From contig OZ037766.1 in assembly GCA_964035545.1 (NCBI GenBank), forward strand, positions 3,834,722 to 3,898,721: DNA of 64,000 bases. The letters are read 5' to 3'. Position 1 is the stretch's first letter. Each line of letters begins with the position of its first letter. The notes beneath the pieces were generated by a model, which was not told the DNA's origin, searched no databases, and worked only from the letters and a program-made list of their open reading frames with translations. Below, piece after piece: positions 3,428 to 41,318 of this stretch. The position numbers were made by a program, and so were the translations under genes. This stretch comes from Bugula neritina. Lineage: Eukaryota > Animalia > Bryozoa.

Positions 3428-3550
<123 letters not shown>

Positions 3551-6500: not shown

Positions 6501-7476
6501 CGCTATTGGTGCGTGGCACAAACTGTACAGCTAAAACATGAATTTTGCTTTAGATCTGAAAGAATATTTTTATTTATTTGTAATATTAAATGAATAAAGA
6601 TCAGATGCAACAAGATCTGCAAAGTTTCAATATATTTGTTGTGTCCCACCCAGTGGCCCATTGTACCCCGGTACCGGGGCACAATGGGCCGATTTTTTCG
6701 TCATGAAAATTTCTTTATTCTGAAAGTTGTGAGAGAGAGAGAAACAACAAACTGATACCTGGAATAGATAACAGATGCAGCATTAAGACTAGAGATTATT
6801 GAACTAGTAACTTGAAAAACAGACGAATGAGAGCAAAGAATGCAAAATTCGGCCCGATTTTAATATCTCTTGTCTCCTGAGTGGTGTAGCTATTACATAC
6901 ATGCTGTTTGGGGTTGTGTGCTCAAACAATTTGGTTTTCTAATAATGATGGTTTATTAGACTCTATAGAGTCTGTGGTATTAAAAACTAATACTAGCTAT
7001 TGCAGACTTTTATTGTATAACATTTTTAGCTACTGCAACACATAGACAGGTTAATTACTGAGCTGGTTTAAAAGTTTAAAGTTTAAACTTTGAGCACACC
7101 ACCCCAAAAATTATGTAGATGATGGACAAAACCCACCCGATGCTAGTTAAATTAAATGACCTCAAGTCTTGCAACTTAAATCGCTGTACGGTGTTGGTGT
7201 CAGTAGCTTACTTGATAGTTAGCTTTGAGTTCTTTAGATCAATTTGTCAATCTTACTTCATTATTGATCTTTAACTTAGTTGTGTAAATAAAGTACACCA
7301 GGCGTGTAATATAGAATGTGCAGCTTTTTCCTTAGGATAACTACCCATACAATGTCTTAGATAGGCTTTAGCTTCTGGTTTTATGTTATGTGAAGTTACA
7401 GAAGTAGGACTCATAATTATACTCTGTCTAGAATAACAGAATCTAAAGCTGTTTCTATCCATCAACATTATACATA

Positions 7477-7572
<96 letters not shown>

Positions 7573-7700
7573 AATAATCAGTTCCTAGAAACAAGGTATA
7601 ATTTAATAAAACTCCAGCTGCTTGAACGGCATTGTGGGAAATCTTTGGACAAAAGAAAGTTTAACTGTACTACAGGTGATCTGAACATCAGAAGAAATCA

Positions 7701-9419
7701 ATGGAGGATGGTGGATACATTATCTTCATTGTGGCGGCAGTGATAGTGAAAGTGATCATATGGATAGTGATATGTAGGTATAGATGCAACTCCAGACAGG
7801 TGAGAGTGGAATCGTGGTGGAGTTCTGTAGTATTGAGATTACACTACACTACCACTACACTACACTACACTACACTACACTACACTACCACTACACTACA
7901 CTGCACTACCACTACACTACACTACACTACACTACACTACACTACCACTACACTACACTGCACTACCACTACACTACACTACATTACACTACACTACCAC
8001 TACACTACAATGCATTACACTACCACTACACTACTACTACACTACCACTACACTGCACTGCACTGCACTGCACTGCACTGCACTGCACTGCACTGCACTG
8101 CACTGCACTGCACTGCACTGCACTACACTACCACTACACTACACTACACTACACTACACTACACTACACTAGAACTTGATGGTTAGTTTGTATGCTTGTT
8201 AGTAAAAAGTTAGGGGCACATACTTCTAATGTCAAACAAGCCTCACACTGGGGCTAATCAGAATTGCTCAGGTGTTTTTGTTGCATTGTTATTGCATCAT
8301 ATTAAATATTGTAAAACTATTGAACACTTGTTTGTAGTTACACGAAAGCTTTGATTCTTGTAATTTTTAAATTTTAATTTAAACTTGCATCGTTCTGGAG
8401 TAAAACGAGTTTTTTTTCTTAAATTTTGCTTTTAAAACTGATATATATTCTTAAATATGCTAGATGAACATTTCCAGTATATATATAATTGATATTTTTG
8501 TGTTGAGGAAGTTGATGATAAATCAGAAAAGGATGTCAACTCCTAAGTATAAAGTTGTTGGTTGTAAGCAAGTTGATGGATAAAAAAGATATTTTTAAAT
8601 TATGAAAAAGCTGCAACCTCTATGCTTTAACATCGTAGCAATTGTGTAAACAACTCCAAAATTGCAATTATCCTGTAGAGGTGCTTAGTAAGTAATTCAT
8701 AACTATCTATAACATCATTGTTACCTAACAGAGAAACCGTTGTTTTACTGGTTATAGACTTATAGCAAGAATTTCTAAGGTGTGTGAAATTGATTTCCTT
8801 GGCCAAGCGCCAGACCAAGTTTATTCATATGGATATGTCCCATCAAATGTGACTGGAGCAAACAAACCAGCTATAAATGATGCTTTATTTTATTCAAATG
8901 CAACTTAAATAACCATCATTTGATCTTAGCTTAAAATTTACCAAAGACAATTATTAGATTCAGATTTATTCAATTGACCAAATCTGACAACCAGATTTTT
9001 CATGATACATTGGCTTAATATTCTTTTGAAGTATGTACATAATCATAATATATTAATCAAGCTTAATTTCTACTATTTTAGCGTGTAGTGACTAGGCAGG
9101 TTATTACTGTTATTACACCCCACCCGTCTGTCCAATCTCCTTATGGACCAACTGCTACATCTACAGGATATGCTTCTGGTGCGGCGCAAGAGCCAATCCA
9201 GTTTGCTCCGCTACCTGCCGCCCCGGGCAGTGAGTATTTGTCACTTACTTAAAACTTTAAATCTGAGGCTAAGAAAACATAATGACTCTGTCGGCAAACT
9301 TAATTTCATTTATAGCCTTAGAGTGATGATATTTTTATTTTATAGAGCCAGCAGCAACCCCTGAGCCTGAGATTCCAGATAGTCAGCCACCGCCCTATGA
9401 TAGATATGTCCGATACTAG
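7701..9419 (+). CDS. Small single-pass TM protein with Pro-rich tail and PPPY motif, copy 1 (exons 7701-7799, 9082-9229, 9346-9419; 106 aa)
   Basis: GT-AG introns with consistent phases 0 and 1; exons conserved across copies; TM followed by CRYRC, tail ends SQPPPYDRYVRY. Confidence 0.8.
7840..8170 (+). repeat. (CTACA/CTGCA)n pentanucleotide repeat; related tract at 15292-15480
   Basis: Direct observation. Confidence 0.95.
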
Positions 9420-10970
9420 AATTTCCATGATCAGCCTGAGTGTTTCTACTTTATTATAACATTATTATTGAGTGTGTTTACTCCCCCCCCCCCCTTTCCT
9501 CCCTGTCATTTATTGTGTGGTGCTCACTCAATGCAATCAGTTCATATCTTTTCTTGCTTTTATTTTATGTTAATCATATTTTTATACACAATAATATAAT
9601 AGTATGTGACACAACAAGATAGCTGTGACAATTTTCATAGAAATTTACAATTGTGTTAAAATCTTGATAAAAATTATGAGATGTTTTCTTATTAAAATTT
9701 GTATTTAAGATTTTGAGTCAAGCTTTAAAATGACTTAATATAAAGCGTATAACCAAGTGGGCAAATAGTGATTTATCATTGGCATCTAGCTCACCTAAAA
9801 ATATATATTGGTTTATGATTGCTAATTAATGAAATGTAGTTAAATTATCTTCAAGTATGCATAAAATACATAGATACATTCCATGAGTGGCCTATTATTT
9901 GAAATACTCACTTTCTTGTTATAACAATTCGGTGGGTGCTATAGAGATGCGTTGGAAAGCTGCTACACAGCTATATAGTTGATTACTAACATGCATCAAA
10001 TGAAACACGGAGCAACATAATTTGTCAAACTGAAGTTGAAACAGGTGCAGCCCTAGTGGAGAAGACTGATCATTGATCATAGCACAGCCATGTGCTAAAT
10101 GATAGCAAGTAGGGGACACGCTTACCACCAAACCACACAAGAAGCAATAATGTCAAAAGAGCTGAGACTATATTATGAGCTGAAAATATAGTCTTATGAT
10201 TTGTGGCTAAAGGTGACCTTATCGATCCATGCTGTAGTGAACTAGGCTGTGAGTTGAGCATTAACTCTTCACTGATGTCCTTTTATTCTAACATACATTA
10301 GTTGATCGCATTTGACACTGATTGACTTCTATTGACATCGGCAAGACTACAATTATTGCAATTCAAACTTACATGGTCAGGATAAACATAAATAAACAAA
10401 ATGAAAACAAAAACAGTTGTATATAATCCACAAAAAAAAGAAACAATATAATTAATGTAAATAACTTACTTATTTTGCTCTCTTAAAATTACACTAGTCC
10501 ACTAGCACCAACTATTGCCAAGTGCCAGGGGTCTTTTAGTTAGCACTGGCTGTGCTGTAGAAACCTTTTTTAGTACGTTTTAAATATAGCTAAAATAGCT
10601 TAGCAAAGTAGCGCTAATTTCGCCACACATGCTGTGGGGTGCATTAGGTCCAAGAGAGAAAATGCTTTTATTTTAAAACATTGTATAACTGCTCATGCAT
10701 TCAGAAAATAAATAAGTTTATTATATATAGTATACTGACGATATATGATTTAGTTTATCAACACCATAAAATTTCAGTTTGATTAGAAAATGGATTAACA
10801 TCAGTGAGTGAGAGTGAAACAAGCATAAATAAGGTCACATTTTATTGAAAGGGCAAGTGATTTTGGCTGAGATATCTACCAAATTACAATGTAAGTAAAG
10901 GAAAGCAAGTAATGTTTTGTAATGACAGAACATTTAGTATCACAGCGTGTAAACATTATTATAAATACAA

Positions 10971-12435: not shown

Positions 12436-13909
12436 CTTCTACTTCGATACTTCGACTTTAGCACGCGCTAGATCACCATAAGGCGCAAGAGGCGTGCCTC
12501 AGCAGCTTGTTACAATACATTTGACATAGAATCATAACTGTATTTGCATACATTATGCATTTTAAATTTGGTAATTGTAGTACCTTTCAGGTTATCATTT
12601 ATCAAGTATTTAGGGAGTTCCAATTCTTAGGTCTCTAATAGTGCGCGGTAGGAAGCTGTTATGATATGCTGTGCACATGGCAGATATCGCAGTTGGTATT
12701 CCGTTAGATGCAGCCCTCGTGGTAACCGTAGCGGTTGACTTGTCCCTTGTCAGCTCAGTGTAGCTGGAAGATAATGCCTGATGACATTCTTCTTTGGACA
12801 AGATCTTCAAAAGGAGGGTTATTCGTAGGCTTTTGCGACGATCTTCCAGTGATGATATGTTGAGTTGTTCTCTTGCATCACTGATGCTAGCCTCCCGGCC
12901 TTTGAGACAGCAGATGAATCTAATAGCTCGGTTCTGGACTAACTCAATTTCTTTCACAAGTTGCTTTGTTACAGGATCCCAAGTGGTTGCAGCATATTCT
13001 AGTATAGGTCTGCAGAGAGTCATATATGCCAGCAGCTTTGCTTTCTTGGGAGCTCCATAGAGGGATAGCTTTAGCATGCCAAGAACCTTGTATGCTTTGT
13101 TTATTTTCTTAGTTATGTGGCTGTGAAACTTGAGGTTAGATTGTAGTGTAACTCCAAGGTAGGTAATCTCATCTACGTAGGGCAATGTTTCTCCCCCTAG
13201 TCGATATGATGGTTGAATTTGGGGATCTTTGCCAAATGACATGATTCGGCATTTTGAGGAGTTGAAGGGCATCTTCCACTTCAGAGACCAATTCTCAATC
13301 TGTTCAATATTCTTTTGGAATTTTCGGACATCATCTAGGGAGTCTACCTCTTGAAAAATCAGTGTGTCATCAGCAAATAAACTGACACTGCAACTTAGTA
13401 AATCAGGGAGATCATTGATGTAAAGAAGGAATAGGGTGGGCCCCAGGACAGAGCCCTGTGGAACGCCAGAAAAGACTGGTAATCTACCAGAAGAGTGGCC
13501 ATCTATGATTACTTGCTGCTCTCGCTTTGTCAAAAAGTTCTGGAGCCATCGGAGTATGTGAGGATTAATTCCATCAACGACGCTTAACTTATGTATGAGT
13601 AGCTTGTGGGGGACTTTGTCGAAGGCCTTCTGGAAGTCGAGAACAAGAGCATGAGTGGTGTGAGAGTTGTTCATTGACCTGGTAATTTCATGGAGGGTTC
13701 CACAAAGCTGGGTTTTGCAGGACAAGCCACGACGGAAACCATGTTGACGATTATGGAGGATGGGATCTAACAGTTTATTGAGATAGTGTAGCACAATGTG
13801 TTCCAGTAACTTGCAAGGTATACTGGTTAATGATATTGGTCGATAGTTATTTGGCATATCTAGCTGGCCTTTCTTGTGGACAGGGATGATGTTGGCTAGC
13901 TTCCATCCC
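12436..13909 (-). mobile_element. 5'-truncated LINE (CR1/L2 group); RT frame 12610-~13905
   Basis: YRPISLTS, QHGFR, LDFQKAFD, GVPQGSVLGP, FADD, YLGV motifs. Short-repeat 3' tail (GAAGTA/GAAGTC). Boundaries defined by the empty paralogous site at ~5006-5035. Confidence 0.93.
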
Positions 13910-14277
13910 GCAGTTATTAATAGCAAAACTACCCTTGACTACTACAGTAATATAATATGTTTGCAATTAAAAGCAAATTATTTCTCAACTGAAGTTTAAG
14001 AGTGTTGGTGTCAGTAGCTTACCCGGTAGTTAGCTTTGAGTTCTTTAGATCTATTTGTCAATCTTACTTCATTATTGATCTTTAACTTAGTTGTGTAAAT
14101 AAAGTACACCAGGCGTGTAATATAGAACCTGCAGTTTTTTCCTTAGGATAACTACCCATACAATGTCTTAGATAGGCTTTAGCTTCTGGTTTTATGTTAT
14201 GTGAAGTTATAGAAGTAGGACTCATAATTATACTCTGTCTAGAATAACAGAATCTAAAGCTGTTTCTATCCATCAAC

Positions 14278-24750: not shown

Positions 24751-27700
24751 ATGGAGGAAAGTACATTCATTAGCATAATTGTGGCAGTAGTGATGGTCAA
24801 AGCCATTATATCAATAGCGATATATAGGTATAGATACATCTCAAAACAGGTGAGAGTGGAAACATGGCGTTGAGTTCTGTAGTGTTAAGGTTACCCAGTA
24901 GCTCCTGTGGTGTAATATTGCTTAGCACGGCCGGTTTCCAATCTGAAGACTGCAGGTTTGAATCCCAGTGGGTGCAAAAGTTTTACAAGTTCACCTATAG
25001 CAAATATACAGTAATATCAACCATATAATATATGGAAAACTTTTTTAAATAGCAAAAGAAATCCGTCAGTTTAAAGAAATGTTCAATCATTTGTTCTCGC
25101 AATGTTGGTTGAGTAATATCTGCTAGTACATGCTGTATGGGCTACTAAAACTGGCCTTGCTTCTTACTTACTGCATCGCAATCTGATTCTAAAAATTCTG
25201 TGAAATATTGTAGATAAGACTTCCTCCATGCAGAGAGCATACACTATGAGTAAATTATAGTTTGGTATACTCTTAAGCTATGCTAGAACTTGATTATTAG
25301 TTTGTATGCGTTTTATTAAAATGTTAGGGCTATGTATTTCTAGTGTCAAACAAGCCTCACACTGGGGCTAGTCAGAATTCACCAGGTGTAAAATTTATTT
25401 CGTTCAATATTGTGATTAAATTAGTGTTTTGTTGCATTGTTCACTGCTTTACATTAAATATTGTAAGACTTTCTAATGCTTGTTTGTAGTTACACAGAAG
25501 CCTCGATTATCATAAATTTTTCTATTTTGTATATTCTTGCATTTTTTTTTCTTTTCATAAATTTTGCCCTTGAAATTGCCTAAAAATATGTTATATCATA
25601 TTAGCATTCATGGCATACTTTTGTGTTAAAGATGTTAATAGTAATTCATTTCTCATATAAGCACGCCAACTCCTAGATAGCACTGCAGTTATATCTAGGA
25701 GTTGAGCTGCTAACATGTTAGTAGTAAGGTAGTTGGTGCACATGGATGAACAAATTGTAAAAAAATTACAGGGTCTATAATCATCATATCAATTGGGTAA
25801 ACAACTCCAAAATTACAGTTATCCCGTAATCGTGCTTAGTAATATATACCTATCTATGTTACTCAACAGCAAAATCATCTTTTTAGCTGTAGCATATCAG
25901 TAAGTAATATTTTGTTGACTACAGCATGAATTTCGGAGAGTAGTAGTAGGTGGATGGTCCTAGGACAACCCTTCCCCCGTCGAGTCTTCGACTCTCCGGT
26001 GTCAGGGATTGTCCTAGGACGCATCCACCTACTACTACTCTATTAGTTTTTTTCGTTAAGTTTTAGAAATTGTACGTTTTAGGACAGTTTATTATTTTAT
26101 TGTCCCAGAATTGTATGTTTTAGGACAGTTTATTATTTTATTAAGTTTACTATTTTATTACTATTAATTTAGAATAAAAAAATATTTTATAGAGTTTTGT
26201 TTTAAAATTGTACGTTTTTAGGACAAACATTAACTTTTATTTCAGAATGCATTCACTCGTTACTATTAGTAAGATAATAAATTATTATACGCTGAGAATA
26301 TAATAATTTAGTGTTTAAACGTTATAACTTGGAAATGTGGGTTGAGATTCTGTAGATTCTATTATATCACCATCGCTCGTTGATATAATTAATTTATTAC
26401 CAACTGCTCCTTGTAATTTAGGAATAGCGTAATTATTTATATTATTTATTGTAATAAGATCTGAAATATTTATACCCGTTTCTACAATATTACCATCACT
26501 CGAAAGCATTAATAATTTACCTCCGATTATTGGTTGTATTTTATTCATAGCGAAATTATTTATATTACTAGTCGTAATAATATCGCTAATGCTTAAACTA
26601 CTATCCGCAACATTACCCGAAGTAGTCGAAACGGTTAATTTTTCATTCGCTGGTTGTATTTTATTTATAGCGAAATTATTTATATTACTAGTCGTAATAA
26701 CATCGCTAACGCTTAAATTACTATCTATAATATTACCCGTATTAGTTGATACGGTTAATTTTTCACTCGGGTCTCGTATAAGAGGTACGGCGTAATTAGA
26801 TACATTAGTTTTCGTAACGACATCATCAACTTTTAAATCACTATCTATAACGCGTCCATCGTCGGTTGATATAGTTAATTGATTAATAGGATGTAATATT
26901 TTAGGCATACTCGTATCGTCAACGTATTTTTTTGTGGCTACGTCTTGATCGTCAACCGGATTAATAACTCTAGATATTTTATTTTCACCCATATCTAACG
27001 TACCCGTAAGAGTACTACTACCGTTTATTAAAACGAATTTTTTTGTATCTATTTTTGTTTTTTCGCTTCCTCCGAATTTATAAACACTCATTTATAATTG
27101 TAGTAAAGTTTTAACGACACTAATTCAAACGGTAAAGCTATAGGCGCGTTGTCATTAACCGTAATGTCATTGGGTTTACGACTAATATAATCGTTTGAGC
27201 AGTGTAATACTAATCCAATATTTTTATCGCTCTCAATATATTCCAACATAGGTATTTTTACGCGCGCAACGCCTCCTTGAATTATATATTCTTTAGTATT
27301 GTGTTTGAGAGGGTTATTAACATTACCGATGATTAAAGTTAAATTTTTATCTTTCCAATATAAAGGATTATCATTATTAGCTGGAAGATGTTGAAATTCT
27401 AATAAAGCGTATTTTAGTTCTATTGGTTTATCCACTATATACCCCAATAATATTCCTATATTAATTGTTGTGCTAAAAGATTGTATAAAAACATTATTAT
27501 TTTTAGTTACGACTCTTTCGATATAATTTTCTTTTTTAGCTTTCGCTAATGATTTACCAAACTTATAAACACTCATTTATTACGGTATATAAAATTCGTC
27601 TAACCCGTGTCTATACCTCCCATTATTTTTTGAGGAAGAAAGATCTAAAGTAATAAAGCCGTGAGGTTTTTGCCATCCTTTATAACAAAAGTTTTTAAAT

Positions 27701-39700: not shown

Positions 39701-41318
39701 TTTAATTAATGATTATTTAGTCAATAAATCTATAGAAATAACGCACGCGTTAATACAATTTTATAACGAAAGTTCACCTAATAATAAAACGAAAGAATTA
39801 TATTGGACTGATAAAAAATTTGGTTTACATATTCGTAATAGCGTAAATCCATTTGACGAGTCTAAAGAAAATATATTTTATACTATTAGCGGTGCTGAAC
39901 ATAATGTTCCGTATAGTAAAATAAATATTAATAAAATTGTTAACGCTAATAATAATTTTTCGTTTACAATAGCTCTTTCGAGTAATTATCCAAATCATAA
40001 ACCTAATGACGTAATTCTTGTTAATACACTGAGTGAATTCGCTACTGATGCACTACCCTTTGATTACGTATATTTAAAACTTTATTATAATAGTTTAACT
40101 AATTAAAAAATTATTATTAATGCTTTCGAGCGATGGTAATATTGTAGAAACGGGTATAAATATTTCAGATCTTATTACAATAAATAATATAAATAATTAC
40201 GCTATTCCTAAATTACAAGGAGCAGTTGGTAATAAATTAATTATATCAACGAGCGATGGTAATATAATAGAATCTACAGAATCTCAACCCACATTTCCAA
40301 GTTATAACGTTTAAACACTAAATTATTATATTCTCAGCGTATAATAATTTATTATCTTACTAATAGTAACGAGTGAATGCATTCTGAAATAAAAGTTAAT
40401 GTTTGTCCTAAAAACGTACAATTTTAAAACAAAACTCTATAAAATATTTTTTTATTCTAAATTAATAGTAATAAAATAGTAAACTTAATAAAATAATAAA
40501 CTGTCCTAAAACATACAATTCTGGGACAATAAAATAATAAACTGTCCTAAAACGTACAATTTCTAAAACTTAACGAAAAAAACTAATAGAGTAGTAGTAG
40601 GTGGATGCGTCCTAGGACAATCCCTGACACCGGAGAGTCGAAGACTCGACGGGGGAAGGGTTGTCCTAGGACCATCCACCTACTACTACTTCGGAGGTGT
40701 ATGAAATCGATTTCCTTGGCCAAGCGCCAGACCAAGTTTATTCATATAGATATGTCCCATCAAATGTGACTGAAGCAAATAAACCAATAAATGATAGTTT
40801 TTTCAATTGCAACTTATTAACAAATGTTTGGTCTTAGCCTACAATTAAATAAAGATAACTATTAGATTCAAACTTAGTCAATTGACCAAGTCTGCCGGCT
40901 AGAATACATTGGCTCAATATTTTTTTGAAGTATTTACATAATCATAATACAATGATTGGGCCTACCTTCTACTATTTTAGCGTGTAGTGACTAGGCAGGT
41001 TATTACTGTTACTGCACCCCACCCGTCTGTCCACTCCCCTTATGGACCAACTGCTACATCTACAGGATACGCTTCTGGTGTAACACAAGAACCGATCCAG
41101 TTTGCTCCGCTACCTGCCGCTCCGGGCAGTGAGTATTTGTCACTTACTTAAAACTTTAAATCTGAGGCTAAGAAAATATAATGACTGCGTTGGAAAACCC
41201 AACTTTATTTATAGCCTTAGAGTGTTGATATTCTTATGTTATAGAGCCAGCAGCAACCCCGGAGCCTGAGATTCTAGATAGTCAGCCACCGCCCTATGAT
41301 AGATATGTTCCCTACTAG
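24751..41318 (+). CDS. Small TM/PPPY protein, copy 3 (exons 24751-24849, 40981-41128, 41245-41318); Polinton in intron 1
   Basis: Same exon sizes and splice sites; frame open. Confidence 0.75.
25939..26039. other. 101-nt terminal fold-back palindrome (left end)
   Basis: Arm AGTAGTAGTAGGTGGATG-GTCCTAGGACAA-CCCT pairs with AGGGATTGTCCTAGGACGCATCCACCTACTACTACT (two 1-nt bulges). A symmetric 9x9 partly paired segment follows, then the apex GAGTC-TTC-GACTC. Confidence 0.95.
26065..26228 (+). repeat. Three subterminal direct repeats AATTGTAYGTTTTAGGACA(GTTTATTATTTTATT) in the TIR
   Basis: Copies at ~26065, ~26107 and ~26205; they share the TAGGACA core with the terminal hairpin. Confidence 0.8.
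26278..26310 (-). terminator. AT-rich hairpin (12-bp stem, 9-nt loop) just past the fibre stop codon; mirrored at 40319-40351
   Basis: TAAATTATTATA / TATAATAATTTA. Confidence 0.55.
26315..27091 (-). CDS. Putative fibre/spike shaft protein, 258 aa
   Basis: N-terminal MSVYKFG. GTLDMGENKI...DQDVATKKYVD resembles tail-fibre neck motifs. About five ~40-aa repeats (KLTVSTxxGNIIDSxLSxSDxITxxNINNxA). Confidence 0.7.
   Translation of the reverse strand: MSVYKFGGSEKTKIDTKKFVLINGSSTLTGTLDMGENKISRVINPVDDQDVATKKYVDDTSMPKILHPINQLTISTDDGRVIDSDLKVDDVVTKTNVSNYAVPLIRDPSEKLTVSTNTGNIIDSNLSVSDVITTSNINNFAINKIQPANEKLTVSTTSGNVADSSLSISDIITTSNINNFAMNKIQPIIGGKLLMLSSDGNIVETGINISDLITINNINNYAIPKLQGAVGNKLIISTSDGDIIESTESQPTFPSYNV
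27088..27576 (-). CDS. Fibre-associated/putative receptor-binding protein, paralogue 1 (162 aa)
   Basis: MSVYKFG N-terminus; LYWKDK, KPND and ALPF motifs shared with ORFs 39070 and 39585. Confidence 0.55.
   Translation of the reverse strand: MSVYKFGKSLAKAKKENYIERVVTKNNNVFIQSFSTTINIGILLGYIVDKPIELKYALLEFQHLPANNDNPLYWKDKNLTLIIGNVNNPLKHNTKEYIIQGGVARVKIPMLEYIESDKNIGLVLHCSNDYISRKPNDITVNDNAPIALPFELVSLKLYYNYK
27580..28338 (-). CDS. A32/FtsK-HerA-type genome packaging ATPase
   Basis: Walker A GKSGCGKT, Walker B LIIFDD, RGRH and LSQ motifs typical of A32-like ATPases. Confidence 0.95.
   Translation of the reverse strand: MEIENLSWKNEINRNNNPLLPKSIRGLIVGKSGCGKTTLLCNLLLQPNWLDYDKLMIYGKSLSQPEYINMRKAFERKLTKEEILNFFKNSDAIINSSINVNRVLKNSKGNGNINAEFIESSDDVYDPSELDASNKNLIIFDDLMLEKQKTCESYYVRGRHNNVDCFYLSQNYFKLPRNTIRENANFICLFPQDGKNLNHIYQDHVTGDLTLNEFKNFCYKGWQKPHGFITLDLSSSKNNGRYRHGLDEFYIP
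28336..28353. promoter_or_regulatory. 18-bp perfect palindrome CATTTATTATAATAAATG containing both divergent start codons (ATPase / PLA2-integrase)
   Basis: Self-reverse-complementary; only 12 bp separate the two ATGs. Confidence 0.8.
28351..29715 (+). CDS. Fusion protein: Zn ribbon + parvovirus-type phospholipase A2 + RVE (DDE) integrase + chromodomain, 454 aa
   Basis: CxxC..CxxC N-terminus; PGHNFLGPGT and AMRHDVCY (PLA2); WAADLVDM, IDVFSKY, VDKGKEF, VERWNRTMK (integrase); ALVKWLGYPDSQNSWV (chromodomain). Confidence 0.93.
   Translation: MYCCKCKTKTKTLNYEKRVSKNNRLMGYGNCGQCGCKKTTFVGSGLANNLINNLPFELHYPGHNFLGPGTKLNKRLNDDMTPKEWSKPVDRDDAIAMRHDVCYALNKDTKTRNEICDKNMLDELKAIPNPTPFEQRHSRFASAIIGAKKRLGWGWTNELAEELHKPVQKKFRKRRVWVSGIDNIWAADLVDMTEFAKFNNGYKYLLTVIDVFSKYGWIIPLKNKTGKATALALKTILTRRKPQHLWVDKGKEFYNKDVKSLIDLYSTENEEKSSVVERWNRTMKERMFKYFSANNTYKYIDVLKDLVKRYNETKHSSIGMTPIEASNPSNENKVRVKLYPNLPALSKPKFAVGDRVRIPRKKRTFEKGYTVRWTEEVFTINKILYTNPTTYKLTDSGGEEIQGSFYERELQKTSQEMYRIERVIKKKGKKALVKWLGYPDSQNSWVNLNVLERL
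29715..29872 (+). repeat. Intergenic tandem array of AAAAGTGGACAC / TAGACAC units with an embedded 10-bp-stem hairpin (29797-29820)
   Basis: Directly visible; TGGACACAAA-TGTG-TTTGTGTCCA. Confidence 0.9.
29886..30692 (+). CDS. Conserved Polinton protein (PZ-like, putative core protein), 268 aa
   Basis: YPATRGLLSLLT, DLANYANIL and C-terminal DPNALVERLELLISSAKAGNTGVRNEI motifs recalled from Polinton conserved ORFs; lies upstream of the capsid block. Confidence 0.7.
   Translation: MSYLKIYDPIKRDKTVQDFISRKNKLKENFKRERERELNAAMAQEKYFEPVIASQAQTTDALKQLLTLPNYNVQPAITDGVINLDEFTQNALAGLEPGAYNVKWDGNRHVIGTKPISFNDGKIIFDNEEYPATRGLLSLLTRKTPIGYNDNDLANYANILDNSGAIYQSKHGPIDKNSEKWKNIVRPIWEQLYPQRAKLANSKKAKRQVGDGVVYLSSDPNALVERLELLISSAKAGNTGVRNEIVSILDELLRMKIITRDYYKSILV
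30696..31022 (+). CDS. Small basic putative core/membrane-lytic protein, 108 aa
   Basis: YAGGG followed by amphipathic IFDTIRNVVTKIAS; Lys/Arg rich; directly upstream of MCP. Confidence 0.6.
   Translation: MYVYDKRQRLQRHYAGGGIFDTIRNVVTKIASNSSVRELGKKAIAKAGTAAGEKIVNAIKKRRLNAIKKRSLNAKSQAILQKLSLAKNVLNNSNISNILEGSGQAIAY
31044..32318 (+). CDS. Major capsid protein (double jelly-roll, PY), 424 aa
   Basis: Size, beta-rich sequence and position before penton. Motifs PSKSYLIIEG, LRHLFGFADDYEK, KPKYIIVGFQ, LNSERYP, LFVIDVSKQ are typical of Polinton MCPs. Confidence 0.92.
   Translation: MDSLNITQKIVLDTSVERDQVHEYEPVTGTNLNTPSEIRIVINQQDLYVQPSKSYLIIEGRLTKADGTAYADADLVTLTNNGMAYLFKSIRYQLDGHDLEYINNPGHASTMMGLLTYPDDYGKSRGLNQLWSKDTTAAAAAANLGFNARQIYIIQKPDPKGTFSIKVDLRHLFGFADDYEKVLYGIKHQLTLVRDTNDNAIFRANGVDAGKITLDKVSWWMPHVTPSFEMKHKLYKIIESKTELPLIYRSRWCDSIAVPQTTNFTWRLGSRGDTEKPKYIIVGFQTDKNESQTTNPAVFDHVNVKSVYAMLNSERYPEVDYDIDFAKMKFSRVYGDASKFCGEYYGINELIAYSNVLPSEYKDLYALFVIDVSKQSEALKSSVADIQLRVQFSQNVPANTQAYALILSDKTMSLSSDGNNLKVI
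32319..33077 (+). CDS. Minor capsid protein (penton, single jelly-roll, PX), 252 aa
   Basis: LNPPIEL, SFPNI, LPVGVYEL, LRDVLGF, PGYKIIEKPHNLIYLP, DQKGNLLDLSGE motifs. Confidence 0.88.
   Translation: MDNRILREIADNTASKQTMTIGVTDTKTRIITQLNPPIELNKNKKYEMCLISLDTFYSFPNISTDRNSYRWSKDGGTTWHLVSLPVGVYELDQLEEAIQDEIVKEGGNRNGITLQANKVTFRIILKLKPNYQIDFNVENSLRDVLGFNAAIYNQPYIEATNIVNILNINAIHVQVDCINGSYIDGTYKPVIYSFFSSVSPGYKIIEKPHNLIYLPVHVKYIKTLTVTVTDQKGNLLDLSGEQLSIRFHLREV
33090..33659 (+). CDS. Putative core protein precursor with an adenovirus pX/pVI-like hydrophobic peptide, 189 aa
   Basis: MSGG-FLGALLGIATRVIPTLL resembles the adenoviral pX cleavage-site region; three further KGxGL motifs. Confidence 0.65.
   Translation: MGYCEIIGNVPQAQKQKIMNAYRSGKGCVIKLPLESGNDKLVVTKTQNDNILKALNANKKNITLEMSPSLVKTNASMSGGFLGALLGIATRVIPTLLKTIIPGVLSGAASAGVERAIKGKGLYLKKGGCVCSVEPNLNGSITLKPVASSNLMKGNGLYLKQGSSYIKGEGLILGPNSPFKNIPLLGMLL
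33652..34102 (+). repeat. 29-bp perfect direct repeat TATTATAGTTAAAGAAAACATATATAAAT flanking the 130-aa ORF (33652-33680, 34074-34102)
   Basis: Two identical copies read directly from the sequence. Confidence 0.9.
33679..34071 (+). CDS. Orphan ORF, 130 aa, with short E-I-I-Y-K-like repeats
   Basis: Open frame with the ATAAATG start context shared with the other element genes. Confidence 0.65.
   Translation: MATVITYKSLDGTPITETIYKNNDCEKRVYEGGDIKERIIYKKFNILDEMNNSTNECGLLEEITYNNKKEIIYKEDNGKIKIKTIYKTKEIIQELNVGLMNYAAARIPSFFTKLKYAEDEIKKRRNDALH
34134..34162. terminator. AT-rich hairpin (13-bp stem) between convergent ORFs
   Basis: TTAATTAATTATA-ATA-TATAATTAATTAA overlapping the stop of ORF 34159-34638. 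Confidence 0.55.
34159..34638 (-). CDS. Two-TM-helix membrane protein, 159 aa
   Basis: Two hydrophobic segments between coiled-coil-like helices; C-terminal SKFLSDSHIDEQEY motif; ATAAATG start. Confidence 0.75.
   Translation of the reverse strand: MDFRREKLELLNDEIIKLENEYEQKLNCFNWLSKSLKIISGLCGTTNLICGVIITALINANVTKQTLFPLSIIVSIMSVITTSISSQDTKLIKSTLMYLDIYTFIKDSKLEINSMLSKFLSDSHIDEQEYDAITEKYKNINNVILDKKSDIIIARNNIC
34651..34908 (+). CDS. Orphan ORF (85 aa, or 75 aa from ATG 34681)
   Basis: Fills the gap before pPolB and is followed by a hairpin; lacks the ATAAATG context. Confidence 0.5.
   Translation: MIFIILLFYNMDLTVELLDKLIAETEQKKYTPLLEYLYIPVINNISLKEINFRTRKQIPNINKYFYIKSILKREAYKRKEENRDV
34930..34960 (+). 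terminator. AT-rich hairpin (13-bp stem, 5-nt loop) between the 85-aa ORF and the pPolB promoter
   Basis: TATTATTACTTAT-TTTAC-ATAAGTAATAATA. Confidence 0.55.
34964..35002 (+). promoter_or_regulatory. Putative pPolB promoter: AAAATTGA ... TTAAAGAA ... TATATAAATG
   Basis: AAAATTGA (34964-34971) equals the mimivirus early promoter octamer; the TTAAAGAA block is shared with the 29-bp repeat at 33652 and 34074. Confidence 0.5.
35000..38671 (+). CDS. Protein-primed family B DNA polymerase (pPolB), 1223 aa
   Basis: Exo I YADFEC, Exo II HNLSGYD, polymerase motifs YLDANNLYG, KLMNNSVFGK, FTDTDS. EndoVII-like insert CYIC..DHCHLTGNYRGAAHKNCN. Rho-N-like N-terminus; OTU-like DNKCFMWA..HY. Confidence 0.98.
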   Translation: MEFNTKITVKALKALAKERGLKRYSRLKKAELIRLLSPMDEPVPNIGQPPLIPTPVKKIMREIFTQTTRNIKKWVIKPITKIINPIKDKIMALYNQPKLKEQAANGWFQTYEIKGLPGYDIDSFCKLIKLNVLKLLKPTIKIKIFIYCEMKKHNMSTGETIVEIMPFTSNIETILESTNINEIYDEIIERIKENFASLNAKGSSWMFKAIKKMEININKYQPLNGSSWIDLPKEIKLKKAVINPKNEDNKCFMWAILMSVHTPKNHPERINNYKEYVNKFSWEGVEFPATKKSIDAFEEANSNIGINVFTWDGKTINLWKKTKNQGKIINLFYISDDKKSHYAYIKNLNKLLGSQINKRVSAKHICVNCMNSCRSNESLKKHQDWCLTNDGVTTVFPKIENKIKFQSSHHCRSMRVPFVIYADFECFTKPIQSCQPNSQESYTNQYQQHEPSGFGYYIVSVTGECEYRSYTKQYEDENIGELFMKLLELDIKNLYKKHKFPKPMKISASEQESFELAEICYICEEKLGNDRVRDHCHLTGNYRGAAHKNCNLNYKIPKFYPIFIHNLSGYDAHLFIKNLGGEPSCIPNTEEKYISFSKKLLVDEFTNKEGEKIKVTREIRFLDSYKFMSSSLASLVANLKRDDFKHLQKHYIKKQLDCYAEKQLDLLLRKGVFPYDYFNNVSVLDETFLPPKEKFYSSLTESNISDEDYEHAQNVWQEFNMKTFREYHDLYMKIDVLQLADVFENFRNVCLEHYKLDPAWYYTAPGLSWDAMLKTTKLELDPITDVDQLLFFEKAIRGGVSMISHRYAKANNKYMENYNASEPSSYITYLDANNLYGWAMSKNLPTGNFKWMTEKRCKDLEKSLNFPPSFLEVDLEYSKELHNFHKDYPFCPERLTINKVEKLIPNLNNKKNYVIHYEALKQCLMYGLKLTKIHKGITFNESNKLKEYINLNTKLRTLARSDFEKDFFKLMNNSVFGKTMENIRNRIDVKLVTSESEAKKLTNQPNFKGYTIFSENLIAVHMNVTKLKFNKPVYLGAAILDISKTLMYDFHYEYIRLKYGNKAQLLFTDTDSLMYHVQTEDFYKDILPDIENKFDTSNYPENHKLLNNKNKKVIGMFKDEAGGKQITEFVGLRAKLYSYKIDGIEEKKCKGINKTTRNNRITFDDYKECLLTRRDQLRTMNVLRSHKHTMYAETINKVALSSEDDKRIILEDGITTVPYGYNK
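38668..39069 (+). CDS. Adenain/Ulp1-like maturation cysteine protease, 133 aa
   Basis: GTHWVA, YFDSFG and Q..ICGHLC catalytic motifs. Confidence 0.95.
   Translation: MSIKLENKALSNIELEFAIKKLKIPRFRGVFSKNDLPDKPRKKECGILNLDNLMGNGTHWVAWYKNNNKKYYFDSFGLHPPLEIMKYLKPPIFYNTERVQEFGTVICGHLCLYWLKEMSKHESPQLIINKLLI
39070..39588 (+). CDS. Fibre-associated/putative receptor-binding protein, paralogue 2 (172 aa)
   Basis: MSSVYIFG; KELYWTDK; ALPF..KLYYN; clearly homologous to ORF 39585. Confidence 0.6.
   Translation: MSSVYIFGNSAKATIINEKPYITKIIIPSEFYCSSSGFGGTLIKDFLVDEPIEITNILVQFYGEQAHNTKELYWTDKRIGLQVRNSAEIFGVSDENTFYDISGSEHNLPFSEISVNKVIEANKDFSISIALSKTYPSHKPSDVILTDTPASEITTAALPFHYVLIKLYYNYK
39585..40106 (+). CDS. 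Fibre-associated/putative receptor-binding protein, paralogue 3 (173 aa)
   Basis: MNIYKFS; KELYWTDK; ALPF..KLYYN. Confidence 0.6.
   Translation: MNIYKFSKVNITTNKAYITSIIPKHEFYYYEDINSFTVDLINDYLVNKSIEITHALIQFYNESSPNNKTKELYWTDKKFGLHIRNSVNPFDESKENIFYTISGAEHNVPYSKININKIVNANNNFSFTIALSSNYPNHKPNDVILVNTLSEFATDALPFDYVYLKLYYNSLTN
40113..40690 (-). repeat. Right terminal inverted repeat (578 bp), including a duplicate of the last 64 codons of the fibre gene (40120-40314)
   Basis: Reverse complement of 25939-26516; ORF 40120-40314 equals the C-terminus of ORF 26315-27091 with one D/N change. Confidence 0.95.
40590..40690. other. 101-nt terminal fold-back palindrome (right end)
   Basis: Exact reverse complement of 25939-26039; apex GAGTC-GAA-GACTC. 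Confidence 0.95.

What the first reader, a model, noticed from the sequence alone, without database searches (positions are those of the whole stretch)
25939..26039. 101-nt fold-back hairpin at each terminus, so the AGTAGT end motif occurs twice per end in opposite orientation
Seen: the outermost 101 bp of both TIRs (25939-26039, 40590-40690) are an imperfect palindrome. It has a 34-bp stem with two unpaired bases, a symmetric mismatch region and a GAGTC-TTC/GAA-GACTC apex; each arm contains the 10-bp palindrome GTCCTAGGAC. Established: the Polinton model uses protein priming at simple AGT-repeat ends and needs no hairpin; imperfect terminal hairpins with flip/flop forms typify parvoviruses and poxviruses; C-GAA-G is an exceptionally stable DNA triloop. 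Inference: the palindrome could extrude as a cruciform in the chromosome and be cut, perhaps by the EndoVII-like domain in this pPolB, to release the provirus. It could instead allow self-priming or end repair alongside protein priming. How Polintons leave the chromosome is unresolved, so this is a concrete candidate mechanism.
Basis: partly seen in the sequence, partly recalled or inferred. Interest (0 to 1): 0.85.

Follow-up and report, generated by a model that had tools for sequence, protein, structure and literature searches.

The report
Hairpin-tipped ends of an animal Polinton
An intact virus-like jumping element (Polinton) in what is likely an animal genome ends on both sides in the same 101-base fold-back sequence, also carried by its sister copies, which likely acts as a single-strand end signal for its protein-primed polymerase rather than as a cruciform cut out of the chromosome.

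Summary
A 14,752-bp intact Polinton (6-bp target duplication, 578-bp TIRs) ends on both sides in the same 101-nt imperfect palindrome (z about -11). Its stem base lies exactly at the host boundary. The hairpin was seen in 4 of the 6 runs laid (2 studies) and is kept by sister subfamilies whose adjoining TIR sequence differs. Unphased hints of compensatory change exist. No inverted (flop) isomer or solo 101-mer showed in the rows displayed.

Extrusion costs about 58 kcal/mol, against 10 for a perfect palindrome. The EndoVII-like piece is a roughly 36-residue insert found in 114 of 120 related polymerases.

Best reading (0.4): a fold formed on single strands that rebuilds a short duplex origin for protein priming. 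Rivals are double-strand binding sites or a relic, self-priming, and single-strand excision.

Terminal palindromes with a hairpin-priming model are already described for protist virophages and PLVs, mostly without pPolB (2026 preprint). This scan also noted hairpin-ended Mavericks on other DNA. New here is the combination with an intact pPolB Polinton. Whether other animal Polintons have it could not be tested.

The parts
25933..25938 (+). Left target-site duplication TCGGAG
25939..26039 (.). Left terminal 101-nt imperfect palindrome; stem base flush with the host boundary; top strand has a TTC loop, bottom (3'-end) strand a C-GAA-G loop
25939..26516 (.). Left TIR, 578 bp, 2 mismatches to the right TIR (26368, 26498)
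25960..26225 (.). Six copies of the motif YTRGGACA (25960+, 26010-, 26079+, 26101-, 26120+, 26218+): two in the hairpin arms, four in the AT-rich TIR interior; candidate protein-binding site (inferred)
   Evidence: 12 in the two TIRs, 0 in 13,596 bp of element interior, 1 in 49,248 bp of host; 4 observed in 26040-26314 against a mean of 0.01 in 1,000 shuffles
26315..27091 (-). 258-aa ORF, weakly fibre-like; its 3' end lies inside the TIR
27580..28338 (-). A32-type packaging ATPase
   Evidence: PF04665
28351..29715 (+). rve integrase with PLA2-like and chromo domains
31044..32318 (+). [quoted passage not shown]
35000..38671 (+). [quoted passage not shown]
36557..36664 (+). EndoVII-like insert (aa 520-555; D534, H535, N551) inside the exonuclease domain
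38668..39069 (+). Adenovirus-type maturation protease (weak match)
40113..40690 (.). Right TIR
40590..40690 (.). Right terminal 101-nt palindrome, exact reverse complement of the left one (same isomer); top strand carries the 3' end and the C-GAA-G loop
40691..40696 (+). Right target-site duplication TCGGAG

Best explanation
The 101-nt fold-back at both ends of this intact Polinton is kept across its sister subfamilies and likely works on single-stranded DNA, where it would snap back into a short duplex that shows the AGT-repeat start site and a repeated motif to the element's protein-primed polymerase. Shown: the fold, its flush position at the host boundary, its retention in subfamilies, the same isomer at both ends, and an open pPolB with OTU-like and polymerase motifs. 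Inferred: when a strand is displaced during protein-primed strand-displacement synthesis, or exposed at a host fork, its 3' end folds at once. The 3'-end strand is the better folder and carries the GAA triloop. This would protect the end and rebuild a local duplex origin before the two TIRs, 13.6 kb apart, can pair. Initiation by the terminal-protein domain at the stem base would copy the hairpin without inverting it, so only one isomer would exist.
For: (1) Stem base equals the element/host boundary at both ends. (2) Retention: the summed contig depth over the hairpin bins against the AT-rich TIR interior was X1 9,162-9,463 vs 995-1,793 (26110-26233), X2 6,558-8,808 vs 561-813, X3 1,071-1,735 vs 0-78 (26079-26233), X4 738-763 vs 81-161; used as a ratio only. 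Other TIR interiors begin only behind 26047 and 26053. (3) The 10 substitution places listed all lie at 26005-26018; none at 26019-26039. (4) Unphased pairing hints. A T put in behind 25969 (X3, 1 contig) lies opposite an A put in behind 26006 (X1 2 contigs, X3 2). G26018>A (X1 3, X3 4 contigs) has a partner T at the place of C25959 in one X3 contig (table 7, read by eye). A four-base block of that outer-arm fragment is complementary to a block in the commonest inner-arm variant (single-contig rows, by eye). (5) No flop signature among the rows shown, and host flanks join at 25939 in X1 and X3. (6) The 3'-end strand folds better (-42.1 vs -39.3; ensemble share 0.44 vs 0.16). (7) Protein-priming parts look kept: three AGT repeats, invariant G202-S203 in the N-terminal region (fits the linking-residue context in PMC11161782, passages), OTU-like Cys motif in 110 and His motif in 109 of 111 full-length relatives.
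Against: No phased covariation: the outer arm's variants were not listed (short contigs), and T26015>C, carried by about half of X1's depth there (2,787 of 5,830), has no partner change seen. The full TIR duplex is about 58 kcal/mol more stable than the two hairpins together, so the hairpins would be transient once both ends are single-stranded. A paired 3'-OH at the stem base has template ahead of it and invites self-priming, which this model must suppress. Two single-contig X3 copies lack the inner arm (joint 26004-26276, depth 41; loose end at 26261). Three viral contigs with TIRs at both ends (L001, L209, L213) show no terminal fold (z -0.56, 0.39, 1.87), though none starts with an AGT or AG motif, so their tips are probably missing. 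No biochemical evidence exists.
Confidence: 0.4

Rival explanations
1. The symmetry works in double-stranded DNA, or is a relic. The two arms are an inverted pair of protein-binding sites (end motif plus YTRGGACA), or the trace of one ancestral fold-back event inherited by all subfamilies, and folding is incidental.
For: The motif in the arms recurs four times in the TIR interior, where no fold is predicted. The mid-stem is variable, and T26015>C has no partner seen. Covariation is unphased. The Halocafeteria preprint itself offers accidental annealing as an alternative.
Against: The inner 18 bp stay an exact complement of the tip while sequence 8-14 bp further in differs between subfamilies. 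An insertion pair and a base change fall on opposite sides of the same stem steps.
Confidence: 0.2
2. Parvovirus-like self-priming. The paired 3' end primes synthesis of the second strand, giving hairpin-closed or dimer intermediates that are resolved by a nick; protein priming serves the open end.
For: The 3'-terminal base pairs at the stem base with template directly ahead. The GAA triloop is on the 3'-end strand. The same model is proposed for protist virophages and PLVs.
Against: Hairpin transfer should leave flip and flop ends. None showed in the 12 of 13 indel rows and 12 of 21 loose-end rows displayed, and both ends of this copy are one isomer. No Rep/HUH-like gene was recognised among 16 ORFs (several ORFs stay unannotated). 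Caveat, recalled and not found in my search: the left end of some parvoviruses keeps a single orientation.
Confidence: 0.17
3. Single-strand excision signal. At a host replication fork each end folds, and the integrase or a structure-specific nuclease cuts at the stem base, which is the exact boundary, releasing a single-stranded element (a local version of the racket model).
For: The stem base coincides with the boundary at both ends. The racket model calls for a single-stranded intermediate (PMC4196379, passages; preprint Fig. 4C legend). The integrase is open.
Against: No excision footprint or solo 101-mer showed: depth runs on unchanged past 26039 in X3 (1,768 and 1,768) and nearly so in X1 (10,046 and 9,047). 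That rve integrases act on duplex ends is recalled.
Confidence: 0.13
4. One reading: the palindrome extrudes as a cruciform in the chromosome and the EndoVII-like domain of pPolB cuts it to release the provirus.
For: D534, H535 and N551 match in order the T4 EndoVII catalytic D40, H41 and N62 (PMC5481773 passage) and are conserved. One diagonal cut of such a junction would fall on the boundary and keep one isomer (geometry, inferred). At superhelical density -0.06 the computed relief (54-73 kcal/mol) approaches the cost.
Against: Cost is 57.9 kcal/mol without the junction term, 45.6 of it in the central 43 bp, against 10.0 +/- 0.5 for 200 random perfect palindromes; relief is at most 36 at density -0.03 (formula recalled). 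Imperfections near the loop block extrusion. The insert covers only profile positions 23-61 of 159, has Y or F where T4 has E65 (E65 and the dimer requirement recalled), and is present in 114 of 120 relatives, so it is no special partner of this end.
Confidence: 0.06

Closest known systems
Animal Polintons/Mavericks with 5'-(AGT)2//(ACT)2-3' ends (PMC8097293, passages and one supplement search; 'adintoviruses', PMC8502044, passages)
   Same: AGT-repeat tips, 6-bp target duplication, TIRs, pPolB, rve integrase, ATPase, protease, double jelly-roll capsid, size about 15 kb.
   Different: Neither paper's main text contains 'hairpin'; here a second, inward copy of the end motif closes a 101-nt fold-back at each tip.
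Terminal palindromes of endogenous virophages and PLVs in Halocafeteria seosinensis (bioRxiv 10.64898/2026.07.28.741278, section 7 and passages read)
   Same: Palindrome inside the TIR next to the target duplication; hairpin priming proposed; untested there too.
   Different: Those are in a protist, 52 nt in the example given, and preferentially on elements without pPolB. This one is 101 nt, bulged, on an element with an open pPolB, probably in an animal.
Parvovirus and poxvirus terminal hairpins (recalled)
   Same: Imperfect terminal fold-back of about 100 nt with unpaired bases and a small apical loop.
   Different: No flop isomer seen in the rows shown, no Rep/NS1-like gene recognised, and the element integrates with a 6-bp duplication and encodes a protein-primed polymerase.
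Adenovirus panhandle origin (recalled)
   Same: A displaced strand rebuilds a duplex origin for protein priming, without inverting the end.
   Different: There the two distant ITRs pair; here each end could do it locally.
T4 endonuclease VII (PF02945; catalytic residues from PMC5481773 passage)
   Same: CxxC...DH...CN order with D, H, N at the catalytic places.
   Different: Only about 36 residues, inserted in a polymerase exonuclease domain; the rest of the T4 protein is unmatched.

Membership tests
Polinton/Maverick | Protein-primed PolB and rve integrase genes | tested here: met
Polinton/Maverick | TIRs, (AGT)n tips and 6-bp target duplication | tested here: met
   criteria from PMC8097293 passages
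Polinton/Maverick | Double jelly-roll capsid, A32 ATPase, protease | tested here: met
   (protease match weak, E 0.002)
Parvovirus/poxvirus-type hairpin telomere | Imperfect terminal fold-back | tested here: met
Parvovirus/poxvirus-type hairpin telomere | Flip and flop isomers | tested here: inconclusive
   No flop signature in the rows shown (12 of 13 indel rows, 12 of 21 loose-end rows; 12 of 61 indel rows); contigs drop rare forms and no raw reads were held
Parvovirus/poxvirus-type hairpin telomere | Encoded nickase or resolvase (Rep/NS1, A22) | tested here: inconclusive
   None recognised in Pfam (16 ORFs), PHROGs (12 ORFs) or Atlas (2 ORFs); several ORFs remain unannotated
Parvovirus/poxvirus-type hairpin telomere | Hairpin exists on free genomes and primes or closes them | not testable with these tools
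   needs extrachromosomal DNA
T4 EndoVII-type junction resolvase | D/H/N catalytic triad with zinc ligands | tested here: met
   D534, H535, N551
T4 EndoVII-type junction resolvase | Full-length domain including the part beyond N62 | tested here: not met
   match ends at profile position 61 of 159 and 61 of 82; the sequence returns to exonuclease motif II at aa 565
T4 EndoVII-type junction resolvase | EndoVII fold of the insert | tested here: inconclusive
   361-aa model matched polymerase exonuclease domains (best phi29, Z 12.9, rmsd 3.0, 170 aligned); the 71-aa single-sequence model was poor and was not searched
T4 EndoVII-type junction resolvase | Paired cleavage of four-way junctions | not testable with these tools
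   bench assay

The most novel reading that the evidence does not exclude
The hairpin lets the Polinton leave the chromosome without being cut out. On a single strand exposed at a host fork, the fold marks the exact boundary, the terminal-protein domain of pPolB initiates there although no free end exists, and a second round from the far hairpin trims the product to unit length: a 'copy-out' route to free, protein-capped genomes, possibly shared by many animal Polintons whose tips have never been folded.
Probability: 0.15. Interest if true: 0.85.

Novelty: new variant of a known kind. Interest (0 to 1): 0.5.

Why it matters
How integrated Polintons give rise to free genomes is unresolved; the racket model is a proposal. 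A 101-nt structure whose stem base is the exact boundary, on an intact multi-copy element that keeps its protein-priming polymerase, gives a small defined substrate for initiation, self-priming and cleavage assays with oligonucleotides. It also extends terminal palindromes, so far linked mainly to protist elements without pPolB, to a pPolB Polinton. The value is tempered because the concept is in a 2026 preprint and generality is untested.

Tried and rejected
No genome is held for this window, so genomic copies could not be collected directly. All 24 listed runs are contigs, and no RNA holder is listed. X12 and X18 laid 0 contigs on the hairpin (no proof of absence). Viral-contig scans with the single pPolB and with the 258-aa ORF found nothing; the capsid alignment found 1 locus and the pPolB alignment 12. 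A symmetric AGT...ACT pattern gave 120 loci of about 750, and the 125 matched stretches folded far more weakly than this hairpin. The metagenome scan returned 80 of 524 confirmed capsid loci; none showed an intact tip with TIR, end motif and fold-back. The prokaryote-genome scan (2 loci) and the apex pattern (13 loci) gave only 17-20-nt matches, treated as chance. The rest of five truncated viral contigs could not be fetched. PDB sequence searches with the insert and with the pPolB profile found no EndoVII entry; Foldseek and VIA-align listed none, which is not exclusion. Solo 101-bp mini-elements as the cause of the high hairpin depth were rejected for most copies because depth continues past 26039. 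An amplification or assembly artefact was rejected as unlikely (several runs, both ends, fixed bulges). In two supplements (PMC8097293, PMC10748475) the searches showed end motifs or table heads only, no end sequences; bioRxiv supplements were not seen and may list further palindromic ends.

Full report
Observation. The element runs from 25939 to 40690 (14,752 bp) between copies of TCGGAG. Its TIRs are 578 bp with two mismatches. The outer 101 nt of the two ends are exact reverse complements. They fold into 18 bp, a one-base bulge, 12 bp, a one-base bulge, 4 bp, a 4x4 loop, 3 bp, a 2x2 loop, 5 bp and a triloop, at -39.3 and -42.1 kcal/mol, with z about -11 and 0 of 200 shuffles as good. Two points can be added. 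The base of the stem is exactly the element/host boundary. The strand that carries the 3' end at each terminus is the one with the C-GAA-G loop and the better fold; that such loops are unusually stable is recalled.

The element. The ORFs are open and include an A32 ATPase, an rve integrase, a double jelly-roll capsid protein, a 1,223-aa pPolB and a weakly matching protease. Named relatives are from a scallop, a bryozoan, a sea anemone and a coral, at 52-58% identity. With the LINE-type reverse transcriptase and microsatellites in the flanks, an animal host is inferred; it was not identified. The pPolB keeps OTU-like Cys and His motifs (110 and 109 of 111 full-length relatives) and an invariant Gly-Ser in the N-terminal region, which fits the terminal-protein description in PMC11161782 (passages). 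Protein priming therefore looks retained, and the hairpin is an addition to it.

Other copies. No genome was held. Of 24 runs listed I laid six: X1-X4 and X1, X3, X12, X18. X12 and X18 gave nothing. In X1-X4 (two studies; X1 may be the source strain) the summed depth over the hairpin was about 5 to more than 10 times that over this copy's AT-rich TIR interior, and X3 had zero depth at 26079-26109 while covering both arms. Loose ends show other interiors starting behind 26047 and 26053. So subfamilies that differ in the TIR interior share the hairpin. Depth continues past 26039 (X3 1,768 and 1,768; X1 10,046 and 9,047), so the inner end motif is not commonly used as a terminus, and solo 101-mers do not explain the depth. 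All 10 substitution places listed lie in 26005-26018; the inner 18-bp copy of the tip shows only two small indels (26029, 26031). Outer-arm substitutions were not listed, although outer-arm contigs carry 2-8 other letters, probably because those contigs are short; covariation therefore cannot be counted. Three unphased hints favour pairing: a T inserted behind 25969 opposite an A inserted behind 26006, a T at the place of C25959 opposite G26018>A, and a short complementary block between single-contig fragments of the two arms. Against this, T26015>C, at about half of X1's depth, has no partner seen, and two single X3 contigs lack the inner arm.

Flip/flop. A flop end would show as a base missing at 26021 in a contig that runs on into the interior, or a base added behind 25956 in a flank-joined contig. 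Neither appeared in the 12 of 13 indel rows or the 12 of 21 loose-end rows shown, nor in the 12 of 61 indel rows. Host flanks join at 25939 in X1 and X3. Contigs drop rare forms, so this shows that one isomer dominates, not that flop is absent.

A repeated motif. YTRGGACA occurs six times per TIR: in both hairpin arms and four times in the interior (4 against 0.01 expected). It is absent from 13.6 kb of element interior and occurs once in 49 kb of host. The GTCCTAGGAC palindrome is two such sites overlapping in opposite orientation. This suggests a protein-binding site and keeps alive the reading that the arms act in duplex form.

Cruciform and EndoVII. Converting the 101-bp duplex into two hairpins costs 57.9 kcal/mol before any junction term, 45.6 of it in the central 43 bp. 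For 200 random perfect palindromes of the same length the cost is 10.0 +/- 0.5. With a recalled supercoiling formula the relief is at most 36 kcal/mol at density -0.03 and 54-73 at -0.06. PMC3834812 (passages) reports that imperfections clustered near the loop make extrusion uncompetitive. The EndoVII-like piece is aa 520-555, between exonuclease motifs I (aa 421) and II (aa 565). A 361-aa model (pLDDT 85) matches the phi29 exonuclease domain. The piece keeps D534, H535 and N551, the order of T4's catalytic D40, H41 and N62 (PMC5481773 passage), so it may be an active nuclease. But it covers only positions 23-61 of a 159-position profile and is present in 114 of 120 related polymerases, 18 of 19 aligned ones and 6 of 12 viral-contig loci. 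Inserted HNH or VSR nucleases in Polinton polymerases are already described (PMC10748475 and PMC11161782, passages). Nothing ties the piece to this hairpin.

Generality. It could not be tested well. Eighty of 524 metagenome capsid loci reached no intact tip. Of 12 viral-contig pPolB loci, three have TIRs at both contig ends; none folds at its first 110 nt, and none begins with a Polinton end motif, so the tips are probably missing.

Mechanism. I favour (0.40) a fold that forms on single strands and rebuilds a short duplex origin at the 3' end for protein priming. It explains the flush stem, the perfect outer 18 bp, the strand asymmetry, the single isomer and the retained priming machinery. Its weak points are that the full TIR duplex is 58 kcal/mol more stable than the two hairpins, so they would be transient, and that the paired 3'-OH invites self-priming. 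The rivals are duplex binding sites or a relic (0.20), self-priming with orientation-keeping resolution (0.17), single-strand excision at the stem base (0.13) and cruciform/EndoVII (0.06). All steps beyond sequence, fold and distribution are inferred.

Prior art. Ten full-text searches were run; those pairing Polinton or Maverick with hairpin, palindrome, terminal hairpin, stem-loop or racket terms were 9, 26, 48, 49 and 89, read as listings. They turned up one direct precedent: bioRxiv 10.64898/2026.07.28.741278 (section 7 and passages read), which describes palindromes next to the target duplication in virophages and one PLV subtype of Halocafeteria, mainly without pPolB, with a hairpin-priming model. 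Passages only were seen of PMC11296320, PMC12747079, PMC8097293 (plus one supplement search), PMC8502044, PMC8547959, PMC10748475 (plus one supplement search), PMC11161782, PMC4196379, PMC3834812 and PMC5481773; none describes a terminal fold-back in an animal pPolB Polinton. The library lacks most subscription papers, the original Polinton paper was not read, and preprint supplements were not seen. Earlier AI notes of this scan report a Maverick with a 210-nt hairpin behind AGTAGT (e1-9909988), a 50-nt palindromic tip in a chytrid element (e1-7220831) and a hairpin near Giardia Polinton ends (e1-637947). I did not test them, and they are not counted as support.

Verdict. A real, conserved end structure and a new variant of a known kind. 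Interest 0.5.

Noticed in passing
window 29714-29870: Tandem array between the integrase and the 268-aa gene with 8 copies of GGACA, the same core as the TIR motif YTRGGACA; may be an internal binding array.
   Followed up: partly
window 27088-27576, 39070-39588, 39585-40106: Three small ORFs (162, 172, 173 aa) near the two ends share DNA similarity and C-terminal letters (families D2, D7, I3, I6); probable paralogues, unannotated.
   Followed up: no
window 28351-29715: The integrase ORF carries a PLA2-like domain before the rve core and a chromodomain after it.
   Followed up: no
window 25800-25938: X1 carries this insertion, while flank contigs of X2 and X4 leave the window at 25914 and one of X3 at 25934; the insertion may be polymorphic.
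   Followed up: no
window 26004-26276 and 26261: Two single X3 contigs appear to be copies with the inner arm and TIR interior deleted; an X4 contig has a much shorter TIR interior behind an intact inner arm.
   Followed up: partly
L209 13-70: A 12.3-kb viral contig with TIRs and a distant pPolB has a T-shaped fold near each end, but it folds no better than shuffles (z 0.39).
   Followed up: partly
L001 1-16929: A viral contig with the same Polinton gene set and 1,086-bp TIRs whose ends lack an AGT or AG motif, probably truncated.
   Followed up: partly
window 12610-13938: Host reverse-transcriptase ORF (PF00078); long TA microsatellites near 3440, 7470 and 50520.
   Followed up: no
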